The translations under genes and the position numbers were made by a program. The notes beneath the pieces are model-generated. The model was given only the letters and a program-made list of their open reading frames with translations. It was not told the origin of the DNA and searched no databases. 58,720 bases of DNA, from NCBI GenBank assembly GCA_964611515.1, contig CAZTAH010000001.1:1-58720 (forward strand). Reading direction: 5' to 3'. Below are positions 10,963 to 58,720 of the stretch, in pieces; the stretch's first letter is position 1, and each line of letters starts with the position of its first letter. This DNA is from an uncultured Candidatus Saccharibacteria bacterium. Lineage in GTDB: Bacteria; Patescibacteriota; Minisyncoccia; Phycocordibacterales; UBA9973.

Positions 10963-11152
10963 CAAAAGCGCGAATTCAAAAAGACTGGACTGCTCCAGTC
11001 TTTTTCGCTTTTGTGAAGACGGAAGCATGTTTTTCTAGCAAGAAAAACAGCTGAGTCCGGGGCTGGAAAATTTGCGAGCCCACCACTACCCACTTCTAAA
11101 AATAAAGAGAAGTGGGTGTGCGGACAGGCGACGGCGAGCAAATTATTGTGGC
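10963..11152 (+). repeat. tRNA-trailer structured element, Glu-linked member
   Basis: Starts AAAGCG directly after tRNA...ACA. Shares CGCTTTTGTGA(A/G)G, GTTTTNNT-AGCA-ANNAAAAC, a CCGGGG-loop hairpin and AAATT..AATTATTGTGGCC with the Arg and Leu arrays. Confidence 0.75.
10978..11005 (+). terminator. hairpin/terminator in tRNA-Glu trailer
   Basis: AAAAAGACTGGA ctgc TCCAGTCTTTTT (12-bp stem plus T run). Confidence 0.7.
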
Positions 11153-11205
11153 CCACACCACTCCTGCATGCGAAGCATTCCTTTTTAATAATCGTAAAAT
11201 AAAAA
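11153..11205 (+). repeat. direct repeat copy A (orphan tRNA-3'-like CCACACCACTCCTGCA + TGCGAAGCATTCC..)
   Basis: Near-identical to 11625-11676, 472 bp away. Confidence 0.85.
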
Positions 11206-11274
11206 ACACCGATTAGGTGTTTTTTATTTTAAAAAGCAAACTGCTTTGCTTTTGTGCGATTTGTGAGGGCGGAT

Positions 11275-11410
11275 CCCCACAAACCCATATTTCCATTGCT
11301 TTTTGTGGTTAGATTAAGTTTCTTCAGAATAAAACTGAGGAATTGTCTTTTAGTTAAATAAATATTTACTAATAATAAAAAAGCTAAAGGATGGAAATAT
11401 AGGTGTGGGG
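11275..11410 (+). repeat. MITE-like ~135-bp element, copy 1
   Basis: Termini CCCCACAAACCCATATTTCCAT.. and ..ATGGAAATATAGGTGTGGGG are imperfect inverted repeats. Homologous to 29719, 42804, 57891 and 58253. Confidence 0.8.
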
Positions 11411-11624
11411 ATTTAGCATAATTTCGCCAGCCCGCCTGCTAATGCTTAGCATTTCGGGCAGGCAGGCGAAATAGCCGAGCCGGGTGAGAAAGCGAACACT
11501 TGGAGCTTTTGCAAGACCTTGAGCGTTTTGTAATCAAAATGCGAAAGGTGTACAGATCCTGAAAGGATCGCGAGTACTTACATATTTTGCGAATACTTGG
11601 AGCAAAATATTTAGTAACTTGTGA

Positions 11625-11676
11625 CCACACCACTCCTGCATGCGAAGCATTCCTCTTAACTAATCGTAAAATAAAA
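11625..11676 (+). repeat. direct repeat copy B
   Basis: GTGACC|ACACCACTCCTGCA|TGCGAAGCATTCC.., matching 11153-11205. Confidence 0.85.
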
Positions 11677-27988: not shown

Positions 27989-28034
27989 CCCCACATCAAT
28001 ATCTCCACACCTAATGGAGATATTGGTAGTGGGG
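27989..28034. repeat. 46-bp mini-palindrome with MITE-type termini
   Basis: CCCCACATCAATATCTCCA cacctaa TGGAGATATTGGTAGTGGGG. A half-copy lies at 27942-27979. Confidence 0.75.
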
Positions 28035-28069
28035 ATAACCAAGTGTCCGGCCGGACCTCTTGTTACACC
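28033..28069. repeat. REP-like palindrome, degenerate copy a
   Basis: GGATAACCAAGTGTCCGGCCGGACCTCTTGTTACACC. Confidence 0.6.
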
Positions 28070-28093
28070 AAGAGACTTTCTGTTATTATTTCA

Positions 28094-28424
28094 TAAGGGT
28101 TATTTTTGATTTTTAGACTTAAGGTCTCCCGAGTCTTTTTTCCATTTTTACCCTTATATAGTAATGCTTATTCTATACTCAGCTTACACGATCGTACGTT
28201 TTGAGTATAAATAGGCCTTTATAAAATAAGGGTTATTTTTGATTTTTAGACTTAAAGTCTCCCGAGTCTTTTTTCCATTTTTACCCTTATATAGTAATGC
28301 TTATTCTATACTCAGCTTACACGATCGTACGTTTTGAGTATAAATAGGCCTTTATAAAATAAGGGTTATTTTTGATTTTTAGACTTAAAGTCTCCCGAGT
28401 CTTTTTTCCATTTTTACCCTTATA
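28094..28424. repeat. 132/133-bp tandem repeat, ~2.5 copies
   Basis: Unit starts at 28094, 28226 and 28359. One poly-T indel and one A/G difference. Two hairpins per unit. Confidence 0.9.
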
Positions 28425-28445
28425 ACATAAACCTAGAAATTAACA

Positions 28446-28483
28446 GGTGTAACAAGACGGACGGCCGTCCGTCTTGTTACACC
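28446..28483. repeat. REP-like palindrome, perfect 38-bp copy b
   Basis: GGTGTAACAAGACGGACGGCCGTCCGTCTTGTTACACC. Confidence 0.9.
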
Positions 28484-28485
28484 TA

Positions 28486-28946
28486 GCGAAACAGAGCAAA
28501 TAAATTTGCTATATTTTAACTCACGCTTTTGGTCACAAATAATTCCTCTGTCGTCACATCGGAATTTTCGCGACCCCGGCTCGCGGTTTTGTTTGCTAAC
28601 AAAACATCGCTCCGCCTCACAAAAGCGAAACAGAGCAAATAAATTTGCTATATTTTAACTCACGCTTTTGGTCACAAATAATTCCTCTGTCGTCACATCG
28701 GAATTTTCGCGACCCCGGCTCGCGGTTTTGTTTGCTAACAAAACATCGCTCCGCCTCACAAAAGCGAAATATAGCAAATAAATTTGCTATATTTTAACTC
28801 ACGCTTTTGGTCACAAATAATTCCTCTGTCGTCACATCGGAATTTTCGCGACCCCGGCTCGCGGTTTTGTTTGCTAACAAAACATCGCTCCGCCTCACAA
28901 AAGCGAAATATAGCAAATAAATTTGCTATATTTTAACTCACGCTTT
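28486..28946 (-). repeat. 139-bp tandem array (3.3 copies), Arg-linked tRNA-trailer family
   Basis: Unit starts at 28486, 28625, 28764 and 28903. The minus strand is in the sense of tRNA-Arg. Confidence 0.9.
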
Positions 28947-28965
28947 TGTGCCCTCGGCAGGAATC
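28947..28965 (-). repeat. displaced exact copy of tRNA-Arg 3' end (19 nt)
   Basis: Minus sense GATTCCTGCCGAGGGCACA equals the end of the gene at 29167-29185. Flanked by GTGACC and AAAGCG. Confidence 0.9.
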
Positions 28966-29096
28966 GGTCACTCTCGTGGATATTTTGTTTCTGGTTCGAC
29001 AAGCTCACCATCACAAAATATCTCACTCCATCGGCCCCCACTCGGTCGTTTCCTTTTTCCTAATCTTAATTAGGAAAAAGGGCTTTGCGCGACCTC

Positions 29097-29119
29097 GGTT
29101 CGATTCCCGCGAATTGCAC
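29097..29119 (+). other. orphan tRNA T-loop/3'-end-like fragment
   Basis: GGTTCGATTCCCGCGAATTGCAC. No matching 5' half. Confidence 0.4.
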
Positions 29120-29168
29120 TAAAATTCTAAATCCCAAGAACTCCGTTCTTGGTCTTAAGTATTTTATG

Positions 29169-29526: not shown

Positions 29527-29607
29527 ATTTTTATTTATTAATTATTAATATTTAACTTTTTTATTATAGCATATTTTACCAAATGCTTAAATTATAAAAA
29601 TTGATGA

Positions 29608-29646
29608 GGGGGTAACAAGGTGGACGGCCGTCCGTCTTGTTACACC
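29608..29646. repeat. REP-like palindrome copy c
   Basis: GGGGGTAACAAGGTGGACGGCCGTCCGTCTTGTTACACC. Confidence 0.85.
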
Positions 29647-29673
29647 AATGAAGCATTACTAGTTAGTAATTTG

Positions 29674-29711
29674 GATTCTCGCACGCAAGCAAAAGATTGC
29701 TTGCTTACCTG
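29674..29711 (+). repeat. second copy of split tRNA-Gly-3'-like module
   Basis: GATTCTCGC-ACGCAAGCAAAAGATTGCTTGCT-TACCTG resembles 29958-30000. Confidence 0.7.
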
Positions 29712-29718
29712 AAATAAT

Positions 29719-29853
29719 CCCCACACCTATATTTCCATCCTTTAGCTTTTTTGTTATTAGTAAATATTTATTTAATTAAAAAAAACCTCTCAGTTTTGCT
29801 CTGAAGATTTTTCAACTAACCACAAAAAGCAATGGAAATATTGGTTTGTGGGG
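29719..29853 (-). repeat. MITE-like element, copy 2 (inverted)
   Basis: Runs from CCCCACACCTATATTTCCAT.. to ..ATGGAAATATTGGTTTGTGGGG. Confidence 0.8.
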
Positions 29854-30032
29854 GTGCGGGTAGCGAGACCGCGAGTACGCTTATCGATCCTTACAGGATC
29901 TGTACACTCTTCGTATTATTTGGAATTAAAAATTCCAAATAATATACTCAGAGTCTTCGATTCTCGCACGCAAGCAAAACTATTTGCTTGCTTACCCGCA
30001 TTAAAAAGCTCCACTGGAGATTTTTAATTTAG
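29854..30032 (-). repeat. Gly-linked trailer unit bounded by tRNA-Gly 3'-end copy
   Basis: Minus sense holds a weak hairpin, then TGCGGGTA-[hairpin]-GCGAGAATCG (antisense to the tRNA 3' end). After more hairpins it ends TCTCGCTACCCGCAC (29854-29868), a 15-nt direct copy of the tRNA end. Confidence 0.75.
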
Positions 30033-30103
30033 TGCGGGTAGCGAGAATCGAACTCGCGTCTCAACCTTGGGAAGGTCGCATGCTGCCACTATACCATACC
30101 CGC
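30033..30103 (-). tRNA. tRNA-Gly(CCC)
   Basis: Minus sense GCGGGTA..TACCCGC-A. Anticodon arm CGACC-TTCCCAA-GGTTG. T arm GCGAG-TTCGATT-CTCGC. Confidence 0.9.
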
Positions 30104-42777: not shown

Positions 42778-42798
42778 GTGGGAGATGGAAGACTCGAA
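42777..42798 (-). repeat. inverted Trp-like tRNA 3'-end copy
   Basis: Minus sense TTCGAGTCTTCCATCTCCCACA matches the tRNA-Trp end TTCGATTCTTCCATCGCCCGCA at 19 of 22 positions. Confidence 0.7.
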
Positions 42799-42803
42799 CC
42801 GAT

Positions 42804-42938
42804 CCCCACAAACCCATATTTCCATTGCTTTTTGTGGCTAGCTAAAATCTCTTCAGAACAAGAGCTGAAGATCTTTTTTTAATTAAACAAAACTTTCTAA
42901 TAATAAAAAAGCTAGGGGATAGAAATATAGGTGTGGGG
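42804..42938 (+). repeat. MITE-like element, copy 3
   Basis: Runs from CCCCACAAACCCATATTTCCAT.. to ..ATAGAAATATAGGTGTGGGG. Confidence 0.8.
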
Positions 42939-43040
42939 CTTGTCCCGAGTAGCTTTAGCGAAGTGGGAATTTATCTCACAAGCTCATGTTTCCTTCAGTG
43001 CTCCAAGTACTTGTTGCTTTACTTAGAGTATTAGCTAATT

Positions 43041-43078
43041 GGTGTAACAAGACTGACGGCCGTCAACTTCGTTACCCC
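43041..43078. repeat. REP-like palindrome copy d
   Basis: GGTGTAACAAGACTGACGGCCGTCAACTTCGTTACCCC. Confidence 0.8.
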
Positions 43079-43085
43079 TTAAAAT

Positions 43086-43400: not shown

Positions 43401-43482
43401 GCCGGAGTGGCGGAATTGGTATACGCGCGCGACTCAAAATCGCGTCTCGCAAGAGTTGTGGGTTCAAGTCCCACCTCCGGCA
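43401..43482 (+). tRNA. tRNA-Leu(CAA)
   Basis: Acceptor GCCGGAG/CTCCGGC. Anticodon arm CGCGA-CTCAAAA-TCGCG. Long variable arm. T arm GTGGG-TTCAAGT-CCCAC. Confidence 0.9.
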
Positions 43483-44250
43483 CAAAGCGAAGCTTTGGGC
43501 AAAAACTAAGTGATGGGGTTATCACTTGGTTTTTAGGTGGTGGGACTTGAAAGCCGGAGCGCGACGGCGCGAGGCGGGGTCGCGGAAATTTTTAGTAAAA
43601 AATTATCTGTGACCAAGTCCCACCTCCGGCACAAAGCGAAGCTTTGGGCAAAAACTAAGTGATGGGGTTATCACTTGGTTTTTAGGTGGTGGGACTTGAA
43701 AGCCGGAGCGCGACGGCGCGAGGCGGGGTCGCGGAAATTTTTAGTAAAAAATTATCTGTGACCAAGTCCCACCTCCGGCACAAAGCGAAGCTTTGGGCAA
43801 AAACTAAGTGATGGGGTTATCACTTGGTTTTTAGGTGGTGGGACTTGAAAGCCGGAGCGCGACGGCGCGAGGCGGGGTCGCGGACTTTTTCAGCAGAAAA
43901 AGATCTGTGACCAAGTCCCACCTCCGGCACAAAATGAAGTTTTGGGTAAAAACTAAGTGATGGGGTTATCACTTGGTTTTTAGGTGGTGGGACTTGAAAG
44001 CCGGAGCGCGACGGCGCGAGGCGGGGTCGCGGAAATTTTTAGTAAAAAATTATCTGTGACCAAGTCCCACCTCCGGCACAAAATGAAGTTTTGGGTAAAA
44101 ACTAAGTGATGGGGTTATCACTTGGTTTTTAGGTGGTGGGACTTGAAAGCCGGAGCGCGACGGCGCGAGGCGGGGTCGCGGAAATTTTTAGTAAAAAATT
44201 ATCTGTGACCAAGTCCCACCTCCGGCACAAAATGAAGTTTTGGGTAAAAA
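43465..44250 (+). repeat. 149-bp tandem array (5.3 copies), Leu-linked tRNA-trailer family
   Basis: Unit starts at 43465, 43614, 43763, 43912, 44061 and 44210. Each carries CAAGTCCCACCTCCGGCACA, the last 20 nt of the tRNA-Leu gene region. Confidence 0.95.
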
Positions 44251-46350: not shown

Positions 46351-48411
46351 TTATTCTAAAATTTTACGCAAAACTTCCTCTGGGACCTCCCTTTTGGCTC
46401 TAGGTTTTTGCCAAGAGGCATCTGTTTCTTTCTTAGAATTATTATTAATAATATTAATATCTTCTTTTTCCGCTTTCTTTAGAGAACTACCAGGGGTGCT
46501 ATCTGTCTTTTGGCTATTTGGTAAAATCTTGTCTTTTGAGACGATATCTGGTTCTTTTTTTTCTGTTTCCCTTTCCTTCTTGGGTCCTGATTTCTCTCTG
46601 TCTCTGCTTGGAGCTTTCCCGTAAATAATTCCTGATCTAGCGATACTGTTAAGCAAGTCGCCCCTACTCTCTTCGCTAATCTCTTTAGTCGGCCTATCAT
46701 CTTTATTTTTTTTCTTTGTCCCACTCTTTAGCTCACTCAAAGATATAGCTTCTGTTTGTTTTTTTGCTTTAACTTTTTTTACCTCTTTGATAGTTCCCTT
46801 TTCTTCTTCTTCTTTTATTTTTTCTAATAATTCTTTTAGCCCTAATTTCTCTGGTGTCCTTGGCGAACTACTTGATTCTTTATTATTCTCCGTATACTTA
46901 ACTGTTTTTTCTCTTTCTATTTTTTTCTGACTAGCAGAAGAAGCATTTCTTTTGTCTGGCGTACTTATTTTTCCTTCTCTTGCTTTAGCTAGACAGTCCT
47001 GACAGTAGACAGGGCGACCTTTTTCTGGTTTAAAGGGAACAAAAAATGGCTTATTGCAATTTGTGCACTCTGCCTTATGTTTTTTTTCTTGCTTAGAGAC
47101 CTGCAGGGTATTACTCCATTCATCTATCTCTCTTTCTACATCCTCTCTTCTTTTTGTATAAAGCTCTCTAGAGCACTCTATAATTCTATCCTTAATTCCT
47201 TTAGTAGGGTCTACTTTCATTGGGGGTAAGGTTATAGCAGAAAAAGGACGACTAGTGACTCCGTCTATCATTAATTTTAAGTAGATATGGTAATTTGGTA
47301 AATTAACTAAATCCTGAGCAGTAAATTCTGGACTAAATTCTTTTTCTAGAAAGTCTGCGTCATCAGCTCCTACTCTAAAAATTATCATTGTCCCAACGTT
47401 GCCAAAAACTGCATCTTTCACCTTGTTGTTTTCAGCATTAGTTAATTGAGCGGTATATTGATGAGCTACAATTAAGTTCAGCCTGTATTTTCTTGCTTCT
47501 GATAAAATATCAGCAAAAGAATCAGTGGCAAAGTTTTGAAATTCATCCACATATAAATAAAAATCTCTCCTTCTGTCTTCTGGTATTCTTACTCTTTCCA
47601 TGGCTGCTAATTGTATTTTGGTAATTATCATTCCACCCAAAAGAGCAGAGTTATCCTCCCCTATTCTTCCCTTTGCGACATTAACCAGAAATATCTTTCC
47701 CTCATTCATAATGTCAAAAACATTTATAGTGGACTCAGCTTGGCCTACCACATTTCTGATGATTGAAGAAGATAAAAATTGTCCTACCTTGTTTTGAATT
47801 GGGGCAATTGCTTCATTTCTAAACTGGTCTCTCCATTGCTCATATTCATTGGTCCAAAAAGATTTAACGACTGGGTCCTTTAGATTACTAATAACCATTT
47901 GACGGTAATCTTTGTCTACTAGTAAGCGAGGAATTCCAAGAAGAGTAGAGTCTGGTGTGTCTAATAGGGCCAAGATGGTATTATTTAGAATATATTCCAT
48001 TCTAGCGCTCCAAGCATTAGCCCATATCTTAGTAAATATACCCATTAAACCAGAAGCAACTAAATGCTTGTGCTTGGGATCATTTATCTGTATTACATTA
48101 AATCCTATATGATGATCCCTGTCTGCTGGATTAAAATAAACAACATCTTTTGCCCTTTCTTCTGGGATAAAATTCAATATCTCTTCTACTAATTCTCCAT
48201 GTGGATCAACAACACAAACTCCTTCTCCGTTTTTTATATTTTGAATTATTAAATTAGACAATAGAACAGATTTACCTGTTCCTGATTTTCCCAATACATA
48301 CATATGCTGACGACGGTCTTTTCTCTTTATTCCAAAAACTGTATTAGAGTTACGAAAATCTGTTTTCGCAAAATAAGTGACTTCTTTATTTATAGGAATT
48401 TCATTATCCAT
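46351..48411 (-). CDS. TraD/VirD4-like (T4SS coupling protein family) P-loop ATPase with CxxC..CxxC zinc ribbon and long K/E/S-rich tail
   Basis: Walker A GKSGTGKS, Walker B YLYVDEFQ, ARKYRLNLIVAHQY. Zinc ribbon CTNCNKPFFVPFKPEKGRPVYCQDC. Confidence 0.7.
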   Translation of the reverse strand: MDNEIPINKEVTYFAKTDFRNSNTVFGIKRKDRRQHMYVLGKSGTGKSVLLSNLIIQNIKNGEGVCVVDPHGELVEEILNFIPEERAKDVVYFNPADRDHHIGFNVIQINDPKHKHLVASGLMGIFTKIWANAWSARMEYILNNTILALLDTPDSTLLGIPRLLVDKDYRQMVISNLKDPVVKSFWTNEYEQWRDQFRNEAIAPIQNKVGQFLSSSIIRNVVGQAESTINVFDIMNEGKIFLVNVAKGRIGEDNSALLGGMIITKIQLAAMERVRIPEDRRRDFYLYVDEFQNFATDSFADILSEARKYRLNLIVAHQYTAQLTNAENNKVKDAVFGNVGTMIIFRVGADDADFLEKEFSPEFTAQDLVNLPNYHIYLKLMIDGVTSRPFSAITLPPMKVDPTKGIKDRIIECSRELYTKRREDVEREIDEWSNTLQVSKQEKKHKAECTNCNKPFFVPFKPEKGRPVYCQDCLAKAREGKISTPDKRNASSASQKKIEREKTVKYTENNKESSSSPRTPEKLGLKELLEKIKEEEEKGTIKEVKKVKAKKQTEAISLSELKSGTKKKNKDDRPTKEISEESRGDLLNSIARSGIIYGKAPSRDREKSGPKKERETEKKEPDIVSKDKILPNSQKTDSTPGSSLKKAEKEDINIINNNSKKETDASWQKPRAKREVPEEVLRKILE

Positions 48412-48715: not shown

Positions 48716-48779
48716 TAAAGAGAGTCAGGAGAAAACCGAAAATCCTAAAAAGAGTAGGTGCTATTTAAAAAAACAAGAG

Positions 48780-49013: not shown

Positions 49014-49070
49014 CATTAGGAGAAAGCCGAAAATCCTTAAAAGAGTAGGCAAAATTAAAAATTTAAAAAA

Positions 49071-57890: not shown

Positions 57891-58024
57891 CCCTAACACC
57901 AATGTTTTCATTCTAATGCTTTTTTGTTATTAGAAAGTTTAATTTAATTAAAAGACAATCTCTCACTCTTGTTCTGAAGAGATTTTAGTTGAATACAAAA
58001 AGCAATGGAAATATTGGTGTGGGG
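57891..58024 (-). repeat. MITE-like element, copy 4 (inverted, left terminus degenerate)
   Basis: Preceded by a GC palindrome at 57864-57890. The 57864-58024 block is repeated at 58226-58385. Confidence 0.75.
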
Positions 58025-58059
58025 GTAACCAAGTGGACGGCCGTCCGTTTGGTTACCCC
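58021..58059. repeat. REP-like palindrome copy e
   Basis: GGGGGTAACCAAGTGGACGGCCGTCCGTTTGGTTACCCC. Confidence 0.85.
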
Positions 58060-58100
58060 TTAGAACTTTTTTTGATTTTTATAGTTTTAGGTATTTGTTT

Positions 58101-58130
58101 GAGCCGCTTCCCAGACTTGAACTGGGGACC
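58101..58130 (-). pseudogene. tRNA-like 3' half (intact T arm + acceptor 3' strand) of a tRNA not present in the window
   Basis: Minus sense GGTC-CCCAG-TTCAAGT-CTGGG-AAGCGGC-TCA. No matching 5' acceptor strand nearby. Confidence 0.5.
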
Positions 58131-58252
58131 TTCGCTTTAGTTATGCGCCTGTTCCCACTTCGCCAAGGCTACGCGGGACAAGCTCGCACACCCACTTTTC
58201 TCAATTCTTAGAGGTGGGTTTCGTGGGGGCCTGCCTGCGCAGGCGGGCCTGT

Positions 58253-58385
58253 CCCCACACCAATGTTTTCATTCTTTTGCTTTTTTGTTATTAGAAAGTT
58301 TAATTTAATTAAAAAATAATCTCTCACTCTTGCTCTGAAGAGATTTTAGTTGAATACAAAAAGCTATGGAAATATTGGTGTGGGG
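58253..58385 (-). repeat. MITE-like element, copy 5 (inverted)
   Basis: Runs from CCCCACACCAATGTTTTCAT.. to ..ATGGAAATATTGGTGTGGGG. Confidence 0.8.
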
Positions 58386-58720
58386 ATTGACATAGCCTAG
58401 ATTGATTACTTTTCGTGAGCCGCTTCCCAGACTTAAGCTAGGATTCTTTGCTTTAGTTATGCGCCTGTCCGCACACCTACTTTTCTTGATTCTTAAAAGT
58501 GGGTGTGGGGATTGACATAACCTAGATAAGTTACAATACTTGAGCCGCTTCCCAGACTTAAGCTAGGATTCTTTGCTTTAGTTATGCGCCTGTCCGCACA
58601 CCTACTTTTCTTGATTCTTAAAAGTGGGTGTGGGGATTGACATAGCCTAGATTGATTACTTTTCGTGAGCCGCTTCCCAGACTTAAGCTAGGATTCTTTG
58701 CTTTAGTTATGCTTTGACAT
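58382..58720 (-). repeat. 125-bp tandem array (at least 2.7 copies) running into the contig end
   Basis: Unit starts at 58382, 58507 and 58632. Each unit carries CTTAAGTCTGGGAAGCGGCTCA (minus sense) and the hairpin CACACCCACTTTT..AAAAGTAGGTGTG. Confidence 0.9.

What the first reader, a model, noticed from the sequence alone, without database searches (positions are those of the whole stretch)
29674..30032. tRNA-Gly(CCC) trailer carries both a direct and a split antisense copy of its own 3' end
Seen (in tRNA sense, minus strand): after the tRNA comes a weak hairpin, then TGCGGGTA-[AGCAAGCAAATAGTTTTGCTTGC]-GTGCGAGAATCG. This is the exact antisense of the tRNA acceptor-3'/T-stem segment, interrupted by a 23-nt hairpin. 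Then come a 12-bp AT hairpin and a GTGTACAGATCCTG(T/A)AAGGATCG module, which also occurs at 11548-11570. The unit closes with TCTCGCTACCCGCAC, a 15-nt direct copy of the tRNA end that abuts a MITE terminus. A second split-antisense module lies beyond the MITE (29674-29711). The layout follows the same logic as the Leu unit: tRNA end, then hairpins, then antisense to the tRNA end, then hairpins, then tRNA end. Inference: the antisense segments could pair with the tRNA 3' end in a read-through transcript, or they could act as recognition or guide sequences for recombination. Both ideas are speculative.
Basis: partly seen in the sequence, partly recalled or inferred. Interest (0 to 1): 0.65.

Follow-up and report, generated by a model that had tools for sequence, protein, structure and literature searches.

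The report
Mini-elements inserted at tRNA gene ends
The odd sequence after this tRNA-Gly gene is one copy of a widespread, apparently undescribed family of tiny non-coding elements in Paceibacterota (CPR) bacteria. These elements sit at the 3' ends of tRNA genes and carry a conserved hairpin flanked by arms that are the exact complement of whichever tRNA they follow.

Summary

**In the window.** After tRNA-Gly(CCC) (30032-30103, minus strand) come:
- an A/T-flanked hairpin;
- an exact antisense copy of tRNA nt 54-74, split at 65|66 by a 9-bp hairpin;
- two further hairpins;
- a 15-nt direct copy of the tRNA end, which abuts a MITE;
- a decayed second module beyond the MITE.

**Evidence for insertion.** A relative (L006) has the identical tRNA and the MITE. 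It lacks exactly the 178 bp between the two 15-nt repeats.

**Evidence for a family.** The same hairpin was found 29 more times in metagenomes.
- Each copy lies downstream of a tRNA gene or tRNA-end remnant (Gly, His, Val, Ser, Ala, Lys).
- Its arms complement that tRNA (mean 18.6/21 positions, against 13.3/21 for other tRNAs).
- The antisense copy is kept (92% match) while the distal direct copy decays (67%).

**Negative results.** There is no Rfam match. No recombinase, reverse transcriptase or Nop gene lies in the window or recurs near other copies.

**Best reading.** These are non-autonomous elements specific for tRNA 3' ends. The tRNA end, the hairpin and the antisense copy together form a structured, hairpin-type recombination site. 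The insertion itself is shown; the mechanism is inferred. An RNA-guide reading is not excluded.

The parts
30032..30103 (-). tRNA-Gly(CCC) gene. Its last 21 nt (30032-30052, nt 54-74, here called S1) form the left arm of the palindrome.
   Evidence: ARAGORN; Rfam tRNA 58.2 bits.
29854..30031 (-). The 178-bp inserted element. It runs from the first base after the tRNA to the end of the 15-nt direct repeat. It can equally be framed as nt 60-74 of the tRNA plus 163 bp.
   Evidence: Absent from relative L006, which has the identical tRNA followed directly by the MITE. The repeat spacing is 178 (D10). The sequence is identical in five other assemblies of the same species.
30000..30028 (-). Terminator-like hairpin (t) at the centre of the palindrome: attaaaaatctcca-g-tggagctttttaat.
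   Evidence: I16 (14-nt arms, 93%); fold. The simple terminator scanner does not call it, so terminator function is inferred.
29993..30000 (-). Antisense 5' arm (tgcgggta), the complement of the acceptor 3' strand plus the discriminator.
   Evidence: I25; 8/9.
29968..29992 (-). Conserved branch hairpin hp1 (a-GCAAGCAAA-tagt-TTTGCTTGC-gt), inserted between the complements of tRNA nt 66 and 65.
   Evidence: 0 expected. The same hairpin is found in L032 (tRNA-Arg) and in 28 metagenome loci. Covariance-model hit of 67 bits.
29956..29967 (-). Antisense 3' arm (gcgagaatcgaa), the complement of the T-loop plus the T-stem 3' strand (nt 54-65).
   Evidence: I22 (12 nt, 100%); (12/12).
29869..29955 (-). 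Variable body (type ii). It holds the motif gaCTCTGAG, a long interrupted AT hairpin (29914-29944), then GTGTACAG, a 5-bp hairpin with loop TGTAA (29885-29907), and CGATAAGCGTACTCGCGG.
   Evidence: I8; I19. The hairpin stems covary between copies (gatcc/ggatc, gaaac/gtttc, cttc/gaag, ggcta/tagcc).
29854..29868 (-). S2, a 15-nt direct copy of the tRNA 3' end: the duplicated target, or displaced old end.
   Evidence: D10 (100%); (score 30, 0 of 300 shuffles).
29719..29853 (-). A 135-bp MITE (ccccacaaacc...ggtgtgggg). It is an older insertion, shared with L006.
   Evidence: I3; D4, I1-I6: five copies in the window.
29673..29709 (-). Module B, the relic of an older element copy: ggta, then hp1, then gt-gcgagaatcc. 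Its 5' arm and terminator hairpin are lost.
   Evidence: (D2, D5); covariance-model hit of 52 bits. The orthologous copy in L006 still carries the 3' continuation 'gaagactctgag'.
28948..29167 (-). Sister element after tRNA-Arg(CCT): hairpin, antisense copy (29097-29118, acceptor part diverged), then a 19-nt direct copy (28948-28966).
   Evidence: conserved in L006.
28485..28947 (-). A 139-bp x 3.3 tandem array of type (i) units. These have no antisense arms beyond 'gtg' and no S between units.
43465..44250 (+). A 149-bp x 5.3 tandem array after tRNA-Leu(CAA). Each unit is the 19-nt tRNA end, a hairpin, an unsplit antisense copy and a type (i) body.
42778..42800 (+). Unsplit antisense copy of the tRNA-Trp end (18/20), placed after a hairpin and followed by a MITE copy.
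10964..11152 (+). Minimal type (i) element directly after tRNA-Glu. The palindrome includes only cac/gtg and there is no direct copy.
   Evidence: An hp1-like hairpin at 11232-11259 was found by the covariance model.

Best explanation
The tRNA-Gly trailer holds two generations of a small (about 140-240 bp), non-coding element that inserts at tRNA 3' ends. The family is common in Candidatus Paceibacterota (CPR/Patescibacteria).

**Anatomy of a full element.** It provides, in order:
1. a copy of the tRNA 3' end (S);
2. an A-tract/stem/T-tract hairpin;
3. an inverted copy of the tRNA end (A), often split at nt 65|66 by a conserved 9-bp hairpin;
4. a body made of variable hairpins between short conserved motifs.

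Insertion leaves a second, direct copy of the tRNA end (S2) on the far side.

**History at this locus.**
- The 178 bp at 29854-30031 is the youngest copy and lies next to the tRNA.
- The MITE and module B (29673-29709) are older layers that were pushed outward.

**Proposed mechanism (inferred, not shown).** S, the hairpin and A form a long palindrome. It could extrude as a hairpin or cruciform, or fold in single-stranded DNA. That would create a duplex copy of the tRNA-gene target with the conserved hairpin as a branch. A recombinase encoded elsewhere would use this structured site to recombine with the tRNA gene's T-loop/acceptor region, rebuilding the tRNA and giving it a terminator.

**Confidence in each part:**
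- Insertion element of a tRNA-end-specific family: about 0.8.
- The antisense copy is a functional part of the element: about 0.6.
- Folded-hairpin recombination site: about 0.35.
For: **Shown:**
- *Empty versus filled site.* L006 has the same tRNA-Gly followed directly by the MITE. The window has 178 extra bp bounded by the 15-nt repeat.
- *Reciprocal cases in relatives with about 80% identical LepA.* L012 has a Gly element where L011 is empty. L011 has an Arg element where L012 is empty.
- *Copy-number variation.* L127 has two tandem copies where L106 has one. The repeat between the two copies is perfect, whereas the distal one is decayed.
- *Tandem arrays* follow tRNA-Leu and tRNA-Arg in the window.
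- *Family and specificity.* All 29 metagenome matches to the hairpin lie downstream of a tRNA gene or tRNA-end remnant. 21 have a called tRNA 5-47 nt upstream. Four are the second element of an array. Two sit on contigs that start inside the tRNA. Two follow a degenerate tRNA end.
- *Arms follow the tRNA.* They match their own tRNA at 18.6/21 positions against 13.3/21 for other tRNAs.
- *Negative control.* A shorter hairpin pattern gave 11 hits in viral contigs, none near a tRNA.
- *Unbiased sample.* In LepA-anchored loci the covariance model finds modules only in Paceibacterota-type loci: the window, L006, L012, L021, L024, L025 and L032.
- *A is preserved while S2 decays.* Identity to the tRNA end is 92% for A and 67% for S2 (n = 17, Wilcoxon p = 0.0016).
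- *Unit structure.* In a tandem array each A matches the S just upstream of it, so the unit is S-hairpin-A-body.
- *Strict complement.* A is the exact Watson-Crick complement of the gene's 3' strand and continues into the complement of the genomic trailer. It has 'A' opposite T70 of tRNA-Ala, and it pairs with genomic 'cac', or with an encoded CCA in L025.
- *Structure.* The segment folds as a three-way junction, z = -9.6.
- *Non-coding and uncatalogued.* The elements contain no ORF, and there is no Rfam family.

**Inferred:** the recombination mechanism, the terminator function, and that S1 is supplied by the element.
Against: - No recombinase, transposase, reverse transcriptase or Nop-domain gene was found. 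None is among about 50 ORFs of the window. None recurs near the elements in 28 metagenome loci. No copy turned up in viral contigs.
- Minimal family members, such as the tRNA-Glu trailer and the 139-bp Arg array units, have only 'gtg' in place of the antisense copy and no direct repeat. The antisense arms are therefore not needed for persistence, and perhaps not for insertion.
- The branch hairpin is optional (absent at Leu, Trp and Arg in the window). In L025 and L021 it sits at a different place in the palindrome.
- A circle of 140-200 bp is very small for double-stranded recombination.
- Elements follow tRNAs on both strands of a window with one dominant gene orientation, so there is no strict strand bias of the kind seen for some single-strand-dependent systems.
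- How the arms become matched to a new tRNA is unexplained.
- The terminator-like hairpins are not called by the simple scanner.
- The window/L006 difference could equally be a deletion between the 15-nt repeats.
Confidence: 0.5

Rival explanations
1. **RNA-level guide or cis-antisense.** The module is transcribed, by read-through from the tRNA promoter or on its own. Its two arms pair with nt 54-74 of the tRNA or pre-tRNA. The conserved hairpin acts as a protein-binding scaffold for modification, processing or degradation. This would resemble H/ACA or box C/D guides, the CPR 'stem-array' TIGR-Tas systems, or the box C/D guide inside archaeal pre-tRNA-Trp.
For: - The architecture is two short target-complementary arms (9 and 12 nt) flanking a conserved stem-loop, and the arms covary with the tRNA.
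- Hairpin stems in the body covary while short single-stranded motifs are conserved. Examples are the TGTAA loop and a CUGA...GAAGA internal loop with possible tandem G.A pairs.
- The read-through RNA folds very stably, z = -10.4.
- TIGR-Tas guides with dual 8-12-nt spacers, and a CPR clade with inactive nuclease, are described in PMC12045711.
Against: - No Nop or Tas gene is in the window.
- There are no box C (RUGAUGA) or box D motifs at the arm borders.
- Both arms pair with one strand contiguously, whereas TIGR spacers target opposite DNA strands.
- An A-tract/stem/T-tract hairpin separates the tRNA from the module, and every unit of the tandem arrays has one.
- The complement extends into the genomic trailer rather than the mature CCA end.
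- Pairing would require unfolding the acceptor and T stems.
- Minimal elements lack arms.
- There is no Rfam match.
Confidence: 0.15
2. **Passive by-product.** Palindromes grow at tRNA-proximal terminator hairpins by intrastrand template switching (quasi-palindrome extension). Unrelated REP-like hairpin repeats then accumulate in these gene-poor 'safe' sites. The antisense copy has no function.
For: - The antisense copy is in exact register with the hairpin, and the spacers on both sides are also mirror images.
- The length of the mirrored part ranges from 3 nt (cac/gtg) to 21 nt across family members.
- The genome is full of other small palindromic insertions, including hairpins nested inside hairpins.
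Against: - Template switching cannot place the same conserved hairpin at the same position (65|66) inside the copied segment next to 10 different tRNAs.
- The antisense copy is kept far better than the equally old direct copy.
- The whole unit, terminator hairpin included, is present or absent as a block.
- Empty sites have no hairpin from which a palindrome could grow.
Confidence: 0.15
3. **Domesticated host module.** The palindrome with its conserved hairpin is kept by the host. It might serve as a strong bidirectional terminator or insulator for tRNA genes, or as an occupied, decoy attachment site that shields tRNA genes from larger integrating elements. The conserved hairpin would be a binding site for a host DNA-binding protein.
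For: - Most tRNA genes in this window carry such a trailer: Glu, Arg, Gly, Trp and Leu.
- The part next to the tRNA is conserved while the distal part decays.
- The 9-bp inverted repeat with a 4-6-bp spacer looks like an operator for a dimeric protein.
Against: - Distribution among close relatives is patchy, with empty sites at orthologous tRNAs.
- Tandem multi-copy arrays and nested decay are typical of selfish DNA.
- A simple terminator, as after tRNA-Ala(TGC), evidently suffices.
Confidence: 0.1

Closest known systems
Integrative elements that target tRNA gene 3' ends with a tyrosine integrase (phage P4-type and ICE att sites), and their gene-less derivatives (cis-mobilisable elements). From my own knowledge of the field.
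   Same: - Insertion at the 3' part of a tRNA gene, with the boundary of the repeat in the T-loop.
- The tRNA gene stays intact.
- A direct repeat of the tRNA end (15-19 nt) flanks the insert.
- Serial or tandem insertions occur, with the newest copy next to the tRNA.
- Presence/absence varies among relatives.
   Different: - The elements are only 140-240 bp, have no integrase and no coding capacity, and no helper element was found.
- They carry an inverted copy of the att core that forms a long palindrome with it, plus a conserved branch hairpin. Classical attP sites have neither feature.
Folded single-stranded recombination sites: integron attC sites and the CTX-phage attP(+) forked hairpin used by XerCD. 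From my own knowledge.
   Same: - Two inverted copies of a target-like sequence, a few tens of nt apart, could fold into the duplex substrate.
- The stem is interrupted by unpaired or branched structure.
- The target is regenerated, so arrays build up with new units entering at the proximal site.
- Units are small and modular.
   Different: - There are no R/L boxes (GTTRRRY) or dif-like arms.
- No IntI or Xer association was tested or found.
- The target is a tRNA gene.
- There is no evidence here for a single-stranded intermediate and no strand bias.
- The branch hairpin is 25 nt, not one to three extrahelical bases.
MITEs and REP/BIME- or RPE-type palindromic repeats of bacteria.
   Same: - Small and non-coding.
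- Built from hairpins and modular.
- Many copies, nested insertions, intergenic location.
   Different: - Strict association with tRNA 3' ends.
- The inverted repeats are not a fixed family sequence. They are copied from, or matched to, the individual target.
- The duplication is 15-19 nt of specific sequence, not a short generic target-site duplication.
Dual-guide RNAs with a conserved loop: TIGR-Tas tigRNAs and stem arrays, box C/D sRNAs, IS110 bridge RNAs (PMC12045711).
   Same: - Two short (9-12 nt) programmable segments flank a conserved stem/loop.
- They occur in CPR bacteria.
- Tandem arrays of units bounded by palindromic stems.
   Different: - No Nop-domain or IS110 gene nearby.
- No box C/D motifs.
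- The arms pair contiguously with a single strand.
- Units are 140-240 nt rather than 36 nt.
- Every unit targets its own neighbouring tRNA.
Retroviral / LTR-retrotransposon primer-binding sites (complement of a tRNA 3' end).
   Same: An 18-21-nt complement of the 3' end of a specific tRNA lies inside a mobile element.
   Different: - The complement matches the gene plus its genomic trailer (cac + spacer), not the mature CCA end.
- There is no reverse transcriptase and there are no LTRs.
- The complement is split by a hairpin and lies in register with a palindrome.

Membership tests
tRNA-targeting integrative element (integrase att system) | The insert is flanked by a direct repeat of the tRNA 3' segment, and the tRNA gene remains intact. 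| tested here: met
   15-nt repeat (Gly) and 19-nt repeats (Arg, Leu); the tRNAs score 58-62 bits.
tRNA-targeting integrative element (integrase att system) | Empty and occupied alleles of the same tRNA site exist in related genomes. | tested here: met
   Window against L006. L012 against L011 at Gly and, reciprocally, at Arg. L127 against L106 for copy number.
tRNA-targeting integrative element (integrase att system) | An integrase gene lies inside or next to the element, or a helper element shares the att site. | tested here: not met
   No ORF in the elements. No recombinase among about 50 window ORFs. None recurs in 28 loci. No attP-like copies in viral contigs. A trans-acting enzyme elsewhere in the genome could not be searched for.
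MITE | Terminal inverted repeats of fixed family sequence and a short target-site duplication. | tested here: not met
   The inverted repeats (S and A) differ with each tRNA, and the duplication is 15-19 nt of the tRNA. The separate 135-bp element at 29719-29853 does have fixed terminal inverted repeats (I3).
Integron attC / CTX attP(+) folded sites | An imperfect palindrome that can fold into a recombinase substrate, with unpaired or branched central structure. | tested here: inconclusive
   The palindrome with a branch folds at z = -9.6 as single-stranded DNA. Folding in vivo and use by a recombinase were not testable.
Integron attC / CTX attP(+) folded sites | Conserved core boxes (RYYYAAC / GTTRRRY, or XerC/XerD arms) and the cognate recombinase. 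| tested here: not met
   The outer ends of the palindrome are the tRNA T-loop (GTTCGAT/ATCGAA), which has C where the box needs R. No IntI or Xer gene is in the window.
TIGR-Tas / box C/D-type guide array | An adjacent Nop-domain (Tas) protein gene. | tested here: not met
   Pfam scans of the window ORFs found no Nop or IS110 domains. No recurrent neighbour in 28 loci.
TIGR-Tas / box C/D-type guide array | [quoted passage not shown] | tested here: not met
   The arm borders are the palindrome stem, TA-AGCAAGC..GCGT, and NCGGAR or CUCUGAG. Both arms complement the same strand contiguously.
Any Rfam RNA family | A covariance-model match. | tested here: not met
   Nothing beyond the tRNA itself at 29600-30100, even at E <= 5.
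Intrinsic terminator | A G+C-containing stem-loop followed by a T-run. | tested here: inconclusive
   By eye, each element has an A-tract, a stem and T5-8. The simple scanner calls none of them. The likely reason is that the T-tract is itself paired with the A-tract inside the long palindrome.

The most novel reading that the evidence does not exclude
The elements are a new kind of mobile DNA that programmes its own target. A conserved scaffold hairpin is flanked by two arms complementary to the target. The module, as folded single-stranded DNA or as an RNA guide, directs a host or helper recombinase to the 3' end of one particular tRNA gene. The arms are re-written when the element moves to a new tRNA. 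That would be a structure- or guide-directed, retargetable site-specific insertion system in CPR bacteria, distinct from integrases, IS110 bridge RNAs and TIGR-Tas.
Probability: 0.2. Interest if true: 0.85.

Novelty: new variant of a known kind. Interest (0 to 1): 0.68.

Why it matters
**Scale of the phenomenon.**
- tRNA 3' ends are the classic landing sites of integrating elements. Here a whole bacterial lineage with tiny genomes has many of its tRNA genes capped by miniature, gene-less elements. In this 59-kb window, five of eight tRNA genes carry one.

**Why the design stands out.**
- A conserved hairpin carries arms that exactly mirror whichever tRNA lies upstream. This is the sequence logic of a programmable recognition module.
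- The module is maintained while the ordinary target duplication decays.

**What it could lead to.**
- If the palindrome is a folded recombination site or a guide, it points to an unrecognised, compact and retargetable insertion mechanism.
- It would also point to a still unidentified enzyme in CPR bacteria.

**Practical consequences even if the elements are only selfish DNA.**
- They explain why assemblies of these genomes break at tRNA genes.
- They provide markers of strain-level variation.
- They should be masked when tRNA trailers, terminators or small RNAs are annotated in Patescibacteria.

Tried and rejected
1. **Chance.** Rejected by shuffles and by the family-wide link to the adjacent tRNA.
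2. **A is a sense copy of the tRNA's 5' acceptor and T-stem strands.** Rejected. For tRNA-Ala (G3.U70) the arm reads ggAcc, the complement of T70, rather than ggGcc. The arm also continues into the complement of 'cac' and the trailer.
3. **Retroviral-type primer-binding site.** Rejected, because the complement follows the genomic trailer rather than the mature CCA end. It includes CCA only where CCA is encoded, as in L025. No reverse transcriptase was found.
4. **tRNA-like RNA formed by A pairing with the distal copy S2.** Disfavoured, because S2 is often degenerate while A stays matched to the tRNA (L012, L032 and L106).
5. **Known RNA family.** None at E <= 5.
6. **TIGR / box C/D membership.** Its defining features are not met.
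7. **Helper phage or plasmid.**
   - Three viral-contig scans were run: the hairpin, and tRNA-Lys and tRNA-Gly end palindromes.
   - They gave only chance hits, in high-GC or coding DNA without tRNAs.
8. **Recurrent neighbouring gene.** All-against-all BLAST of ORFs from 28 loci found only syntenic housekeeping genes.
9. **G.T against A.C mismatch asymmetry, to tell RNA from DNA folding.** Too few ungapped mismatches to be informative.
10. **Strand bias relative to replication.** GC skew follows gene orientation. Elements occur on both strands, so this is only weak evidence.
11. **Literature.** Four searches found no description of these elements. Exact-protein look-ups of the neighbouring DivIC-like gene returned only identical sequence, or contigs that break inside the repeats.
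Full report
**What is in the window**

ARAGORN and Rfam place tRNA-Gly(CCC) at 30032-30103 on the minus strand. Read in the tRNA sense, the trailer has these parts:
1. An A-tract/stem/T-tract hairpin at 30000-28.
2. tgcgggta at 30000-29993.
3. A 9-bp hairpin, a-GCAAGCAAA-tagt-TTTGCTTGC-gt, at 29992-29968.
4. gcgagaatcgaa at 29967-29956.
5. A body with a perfect 14-bp AT hairpin (29914-44) and the module GTGTACAG-gatcc-TGTAA-ggatc-G (29885-29907).
6. A 15-nt direct copy of the tRNA end at 29854-68.

The direct copy touches a 135-bp MITE (29719-29853). Beyond the MITE is a second, truncated hairpin module (29673-29709).

Items 2 and 4 together are the exact complement of tRNA nt 54-73. They are interrupted between the complements of nt 66 and 65.

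The features are not chance:
- No shuffle out of 300 reaches the antisense or direct score.
- The hairpin pattern is expected 0.00 times but is seen twice.
- The region from the tRNA T-loop to the end of the antisense copy is one imperfect palindrome centred on the first hairpin. As single-stranded DNA it folds into a three-way junction at -37.7 kcal/mol, z = -9.6.

**The same grammar at other tRNAs in the window**

Four of the eight tRNA genes have a significant antisense copy of their own 3' end 47-64 nt downstream: Arg, Gly, Trp and Leu. Three of these (Arg, Gly, Leu) also have a direct copy of 15-19 nt further on.
- After tRNA-Leu the whole 149-bp unit is repeated 5.3 times.
- After the Arg element comes a 139-bp x 3.3 array of related units.
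- tRNA-Glu is followed directly by a minimal relative whose palindrome includes only cac/gtg.
- The Leu, Arg-array and Glu units share motifs: AAAAGCG..CGCTTTTGTG, NCGGAR, GAG-NN-GGGGTCG and TTATYTGTGRCC.
- For that reason the 'gccggag' of the Leu unit is a family motif and not a piece of the tRNA.

**It is an insertion**

The neighbouring DivIC-like protein led to contigs of the same species. These were identical and often broke inside the repeats. It also led to a relative, L006, from an anaerobic digester, whose protein is 62% identical.

In L006 the identical tRNA-Gly is followed immediately by the MITE and then by module B. The 178 bp between the two 15-nt repeats is missing. L006's module B still carries the continuation 'gaagactctgag', which in the window follows module A.

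The most economical history has three steps:
1. An old element copy inserted; module B is its relic.
2. The MITE inserted; this event is shared by both genomes.
3. A new copy entered at the tRNA end in the window's lineage. Alternatively, that copy was lost from L006 by recombination between the repeats.

A LepA-anchored scan of genome assemblies identified the organism as Candidatus Paceibacterota and gave syntenic loci.
- L012 (LepA 80%) has a Gly element where L011 (81%) has an empty site with the same downstream flank.
- L011 has an Arg element where L012 is empty.
- In the metagenomes, L127 has two tandem copies where L106 has one. The middle repeat is perfect and the distal one is decayed.
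- New copies therefore appear next to the tRNA, and older material lies further out.

**A family with arms matched to each tRNA**

L012's Gly element has the same split architecture. Its 5' arm (GTGCGGGATA) follows L012's own, different acceptor stem. L032 has the identical hairpin after tRNA-Arg, with arms that complement tRNA-Arg.

One metagenome scan for the hairpin (TAAGCAAGCAA-N2-8-TTGCTTGCGYG) returned 28 loci with 29 matches:
- 21 have a called tRNA 5-47 nt upstream.
- 4 are the second element of an array behind a tRNA.
- 2 lie on contigs that begin inside the tRNA.
- 2 follow a degenerate tRNA end.

The tRNAs are Gly (CCC, GCC, UCC), His, Val, Ser (UGA, CGA), Ala (UGC, GGC) and Lys, plus Arg in L032.
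- In 18 non-identical modules the arms match their own tRNA at 18.6 of 21 positions, against 13.3 for other tRNAs.
- The baseline is high because T-loops are conserved and the search pattern fixed 2-3 arm bases.
- In several loci the palindrome is perfect over about 37 bp, for example L109 Lys.
- A shorter hairpin pattern hit 11 viral contigs, none near a tRNA.
- A covariance model built from the modules found significant copies in LepA-anchored loci only in Paceibacterota-type loci, including variant hairpins in L012, L021, L024 and L025.

**What the comparisons say about function**

- *Preservation.* The antisense copy A is much better preserved than the direct copy S2. Identity to the tRNA end over nt 56-74 is 92% against 67% (17 elements, Wilcoxon p = 0.0016). 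S2 behaves like a neutral by-product. A is either under constraint or is repeatedly corrected against the tRNA end.
- *Unit structure.* In the tandem Ser array of L105 each A matches the S immediately upstream. The unit is therefore S-hairpin-A-body.
- *Strict complement.* A is a strict Watson-Crick complement of the gene's 3' strand. Opposite T70 of the tRNA-Ala G3.U70 pair it has A, not the G of the 5' strand. The complement also runs on into the genomic trailer, or into CCA where CCA is encoded, as in L025.
  - This rules out a copied 5' strand.
  - It rules out a retroviral-type primer-binding site.
  - It favours a DNA-level palindrome.
- *Covariation.* Hairpin stems in the body covary while loops and junction motifs are conserved. 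Intrastrand folding therefore matters, whether in DNA or in RNA.
- *Dispensable parts.* The branch hairpin is optional and can sit elsewhere in the palindrome. Minimal elements lack the arms and S2 altogether.

**What was not found**

- There is no Rfam family, even at E <= 5.
- The elements contain no ORF.
- About 50 window ORFs include no integrase, transposase, reverse transcriptase or Nop/IS110 domain. The only DNA-transfer-type gene is a TraG/TrwB-like ATPase at 46351-48411.
- No gene family recurs near the elements in 28 loci.
- No attP-like copies were found in viral contigs.
- The simple terminator scanner does not call the A-tract/stem/T-tract hairpins, so terminator function is an inference.
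- Four literature searches found no description of these elements.

**Interpretation**

*Shown.* This is a family of 140-240-bp non-coding units that are gained, lost and multiplied at the 3' ends of tRNA genes in Paceibacterota. Each carries an inverted copy of the adjacent tRNA end, often split by a conserved hairpin.

*Inferred.* They insert by site-specific recombination in the T-loop/acceptor region.
- The direct repeats usually begin at C56, after a conserved GTGAC.
- On this model the element supplies a replacement tRNA end plus a terminator.
- The S-hairpin-A palindrome would be the element's recombination site, presented as a hairpin or cruciform.
- This would be comparable in logic to integron attC sites and the CTX-phage attP(+) hairpin, where new units also enter at the proximal site.

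*Unexplained.* Three things remain open: the enzyme, how arms are re-specified for new tRNAs, and why minimal members do without arms.

*Rivals.* The main rival is an RNA guide. The layout of two short arms and a scaffold hairpin recalls H/ACA, box C/D and the TIGR-Tas stem arrays recently described in CPR bacteria. The defining features of those systems were tested and not met. Pure template-switch growth of terminator palindromes, and host domestication, are lesser alternatives.

**Verdict**

The finding is real. It is best classed as a new variant of tRNA-targeting integrative/miniature elements. There is a reasonable chance (about 0.2) that it reflects a new structure- or guide-directed targeting mechanism.

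Noticed in passing
window 11271-11413, 29719-29853, 42804-42941, 57896-58025, 58257-58385: Five copies (75-97% alike) of a 135-bp MITE with termini ccccacaaacc...ggtgtgggg. Every copy is inserted in or beside a tRNA-trailer element: after 'cgga(t)' of the NCGGAR motif, or after the tRNA-end copy. A copy in L006 interrupts the Arg-side element at the same motif.
   Followed up: partly
window 28027-28070, 28441-28484, 29604-29647, 43036-43079, 58017-58060: A REP-like, nearly perfect 38-bp palindrome (GGTGTAACAAGACGGACGGCCGTCCGTCTTGTTACACC) occurs five times, always inside the tRNA-trailer repeat islands.
   Followed up: no
window 28093-28424 and 58377-58712: Two more tandem arrays: 133 bp x 2.5 downstream of tRNA-Phe, and 125 bp x 2.7 at the window's end. 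On the minus strand the units of the second array contain degenerate segments resembling the 3' half of a tRNA. A better-preserved such fragment lies at 58099-58158.
   Followed up: no
window 11153-11204 and 11625-11676: A 52-nt direct repeat (94%) brackets a roughly 420-bp composite insertion in the tRNA-Glu trailer. The insertion holds a terminator, an hp1-like hairpin, a MITE, a GC-rich hairpin and a GTGTACAG module. Both repeat copies follow an element right end (TGTGRC).
   Followed up: no
window, all eight tRNA genes (10891-50230): None of the eight tRNA genes encodes CCA. Seven of them read A-C after the acceptor stem (discriminator A plus C74) before diverging. tRNA-Trp reads G-C.
   Followed up: no
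window 48726-48760 and 49017-49051: Two DUF805b RNA motifs (Rfam RF02914; 44.7 and 52 bits) lie downstream of tRNA-Ala(TGC), each ahead of a small ORF. This tRNA has only a plain terminator hairpin and no element.
   Followed up: no
window 46351-48411 (-): A 686-aa TraG/TrwB-like type IV coupling-protein / HerA-type ATPase with a zinc finger, next to a lamin-tail-domain protein. It is the only DNA-translocation-type gene in the window and lies between the tRNA-Leu array and tRNA-Ala.
   Followed up: no
L122 vs L102 (metagenome loci), hp4 loop: Two otherwise near-identical Gly elements differ by a 31-nt GC-rich hairpin inserted into the TGTAA loop of the small hairpin. Similar GC-rich hairpins (cccgcctgc...gcaggcagg) occur in the window near 11420-11470 and 58230-58250. 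Tiny palindromes seem to insert into the loops of other hairpins.
   Followed up: no
L104 about 2000-2250 (metagenome locus): A GTGTACAG-hairpin module lies between two copies of what looks like the 5' part of a tRNA gene (ggccttatcgtctaacggttag...). A related element may be inserted within, or duplicating, a tRNA 5' half.
   Followed up: no
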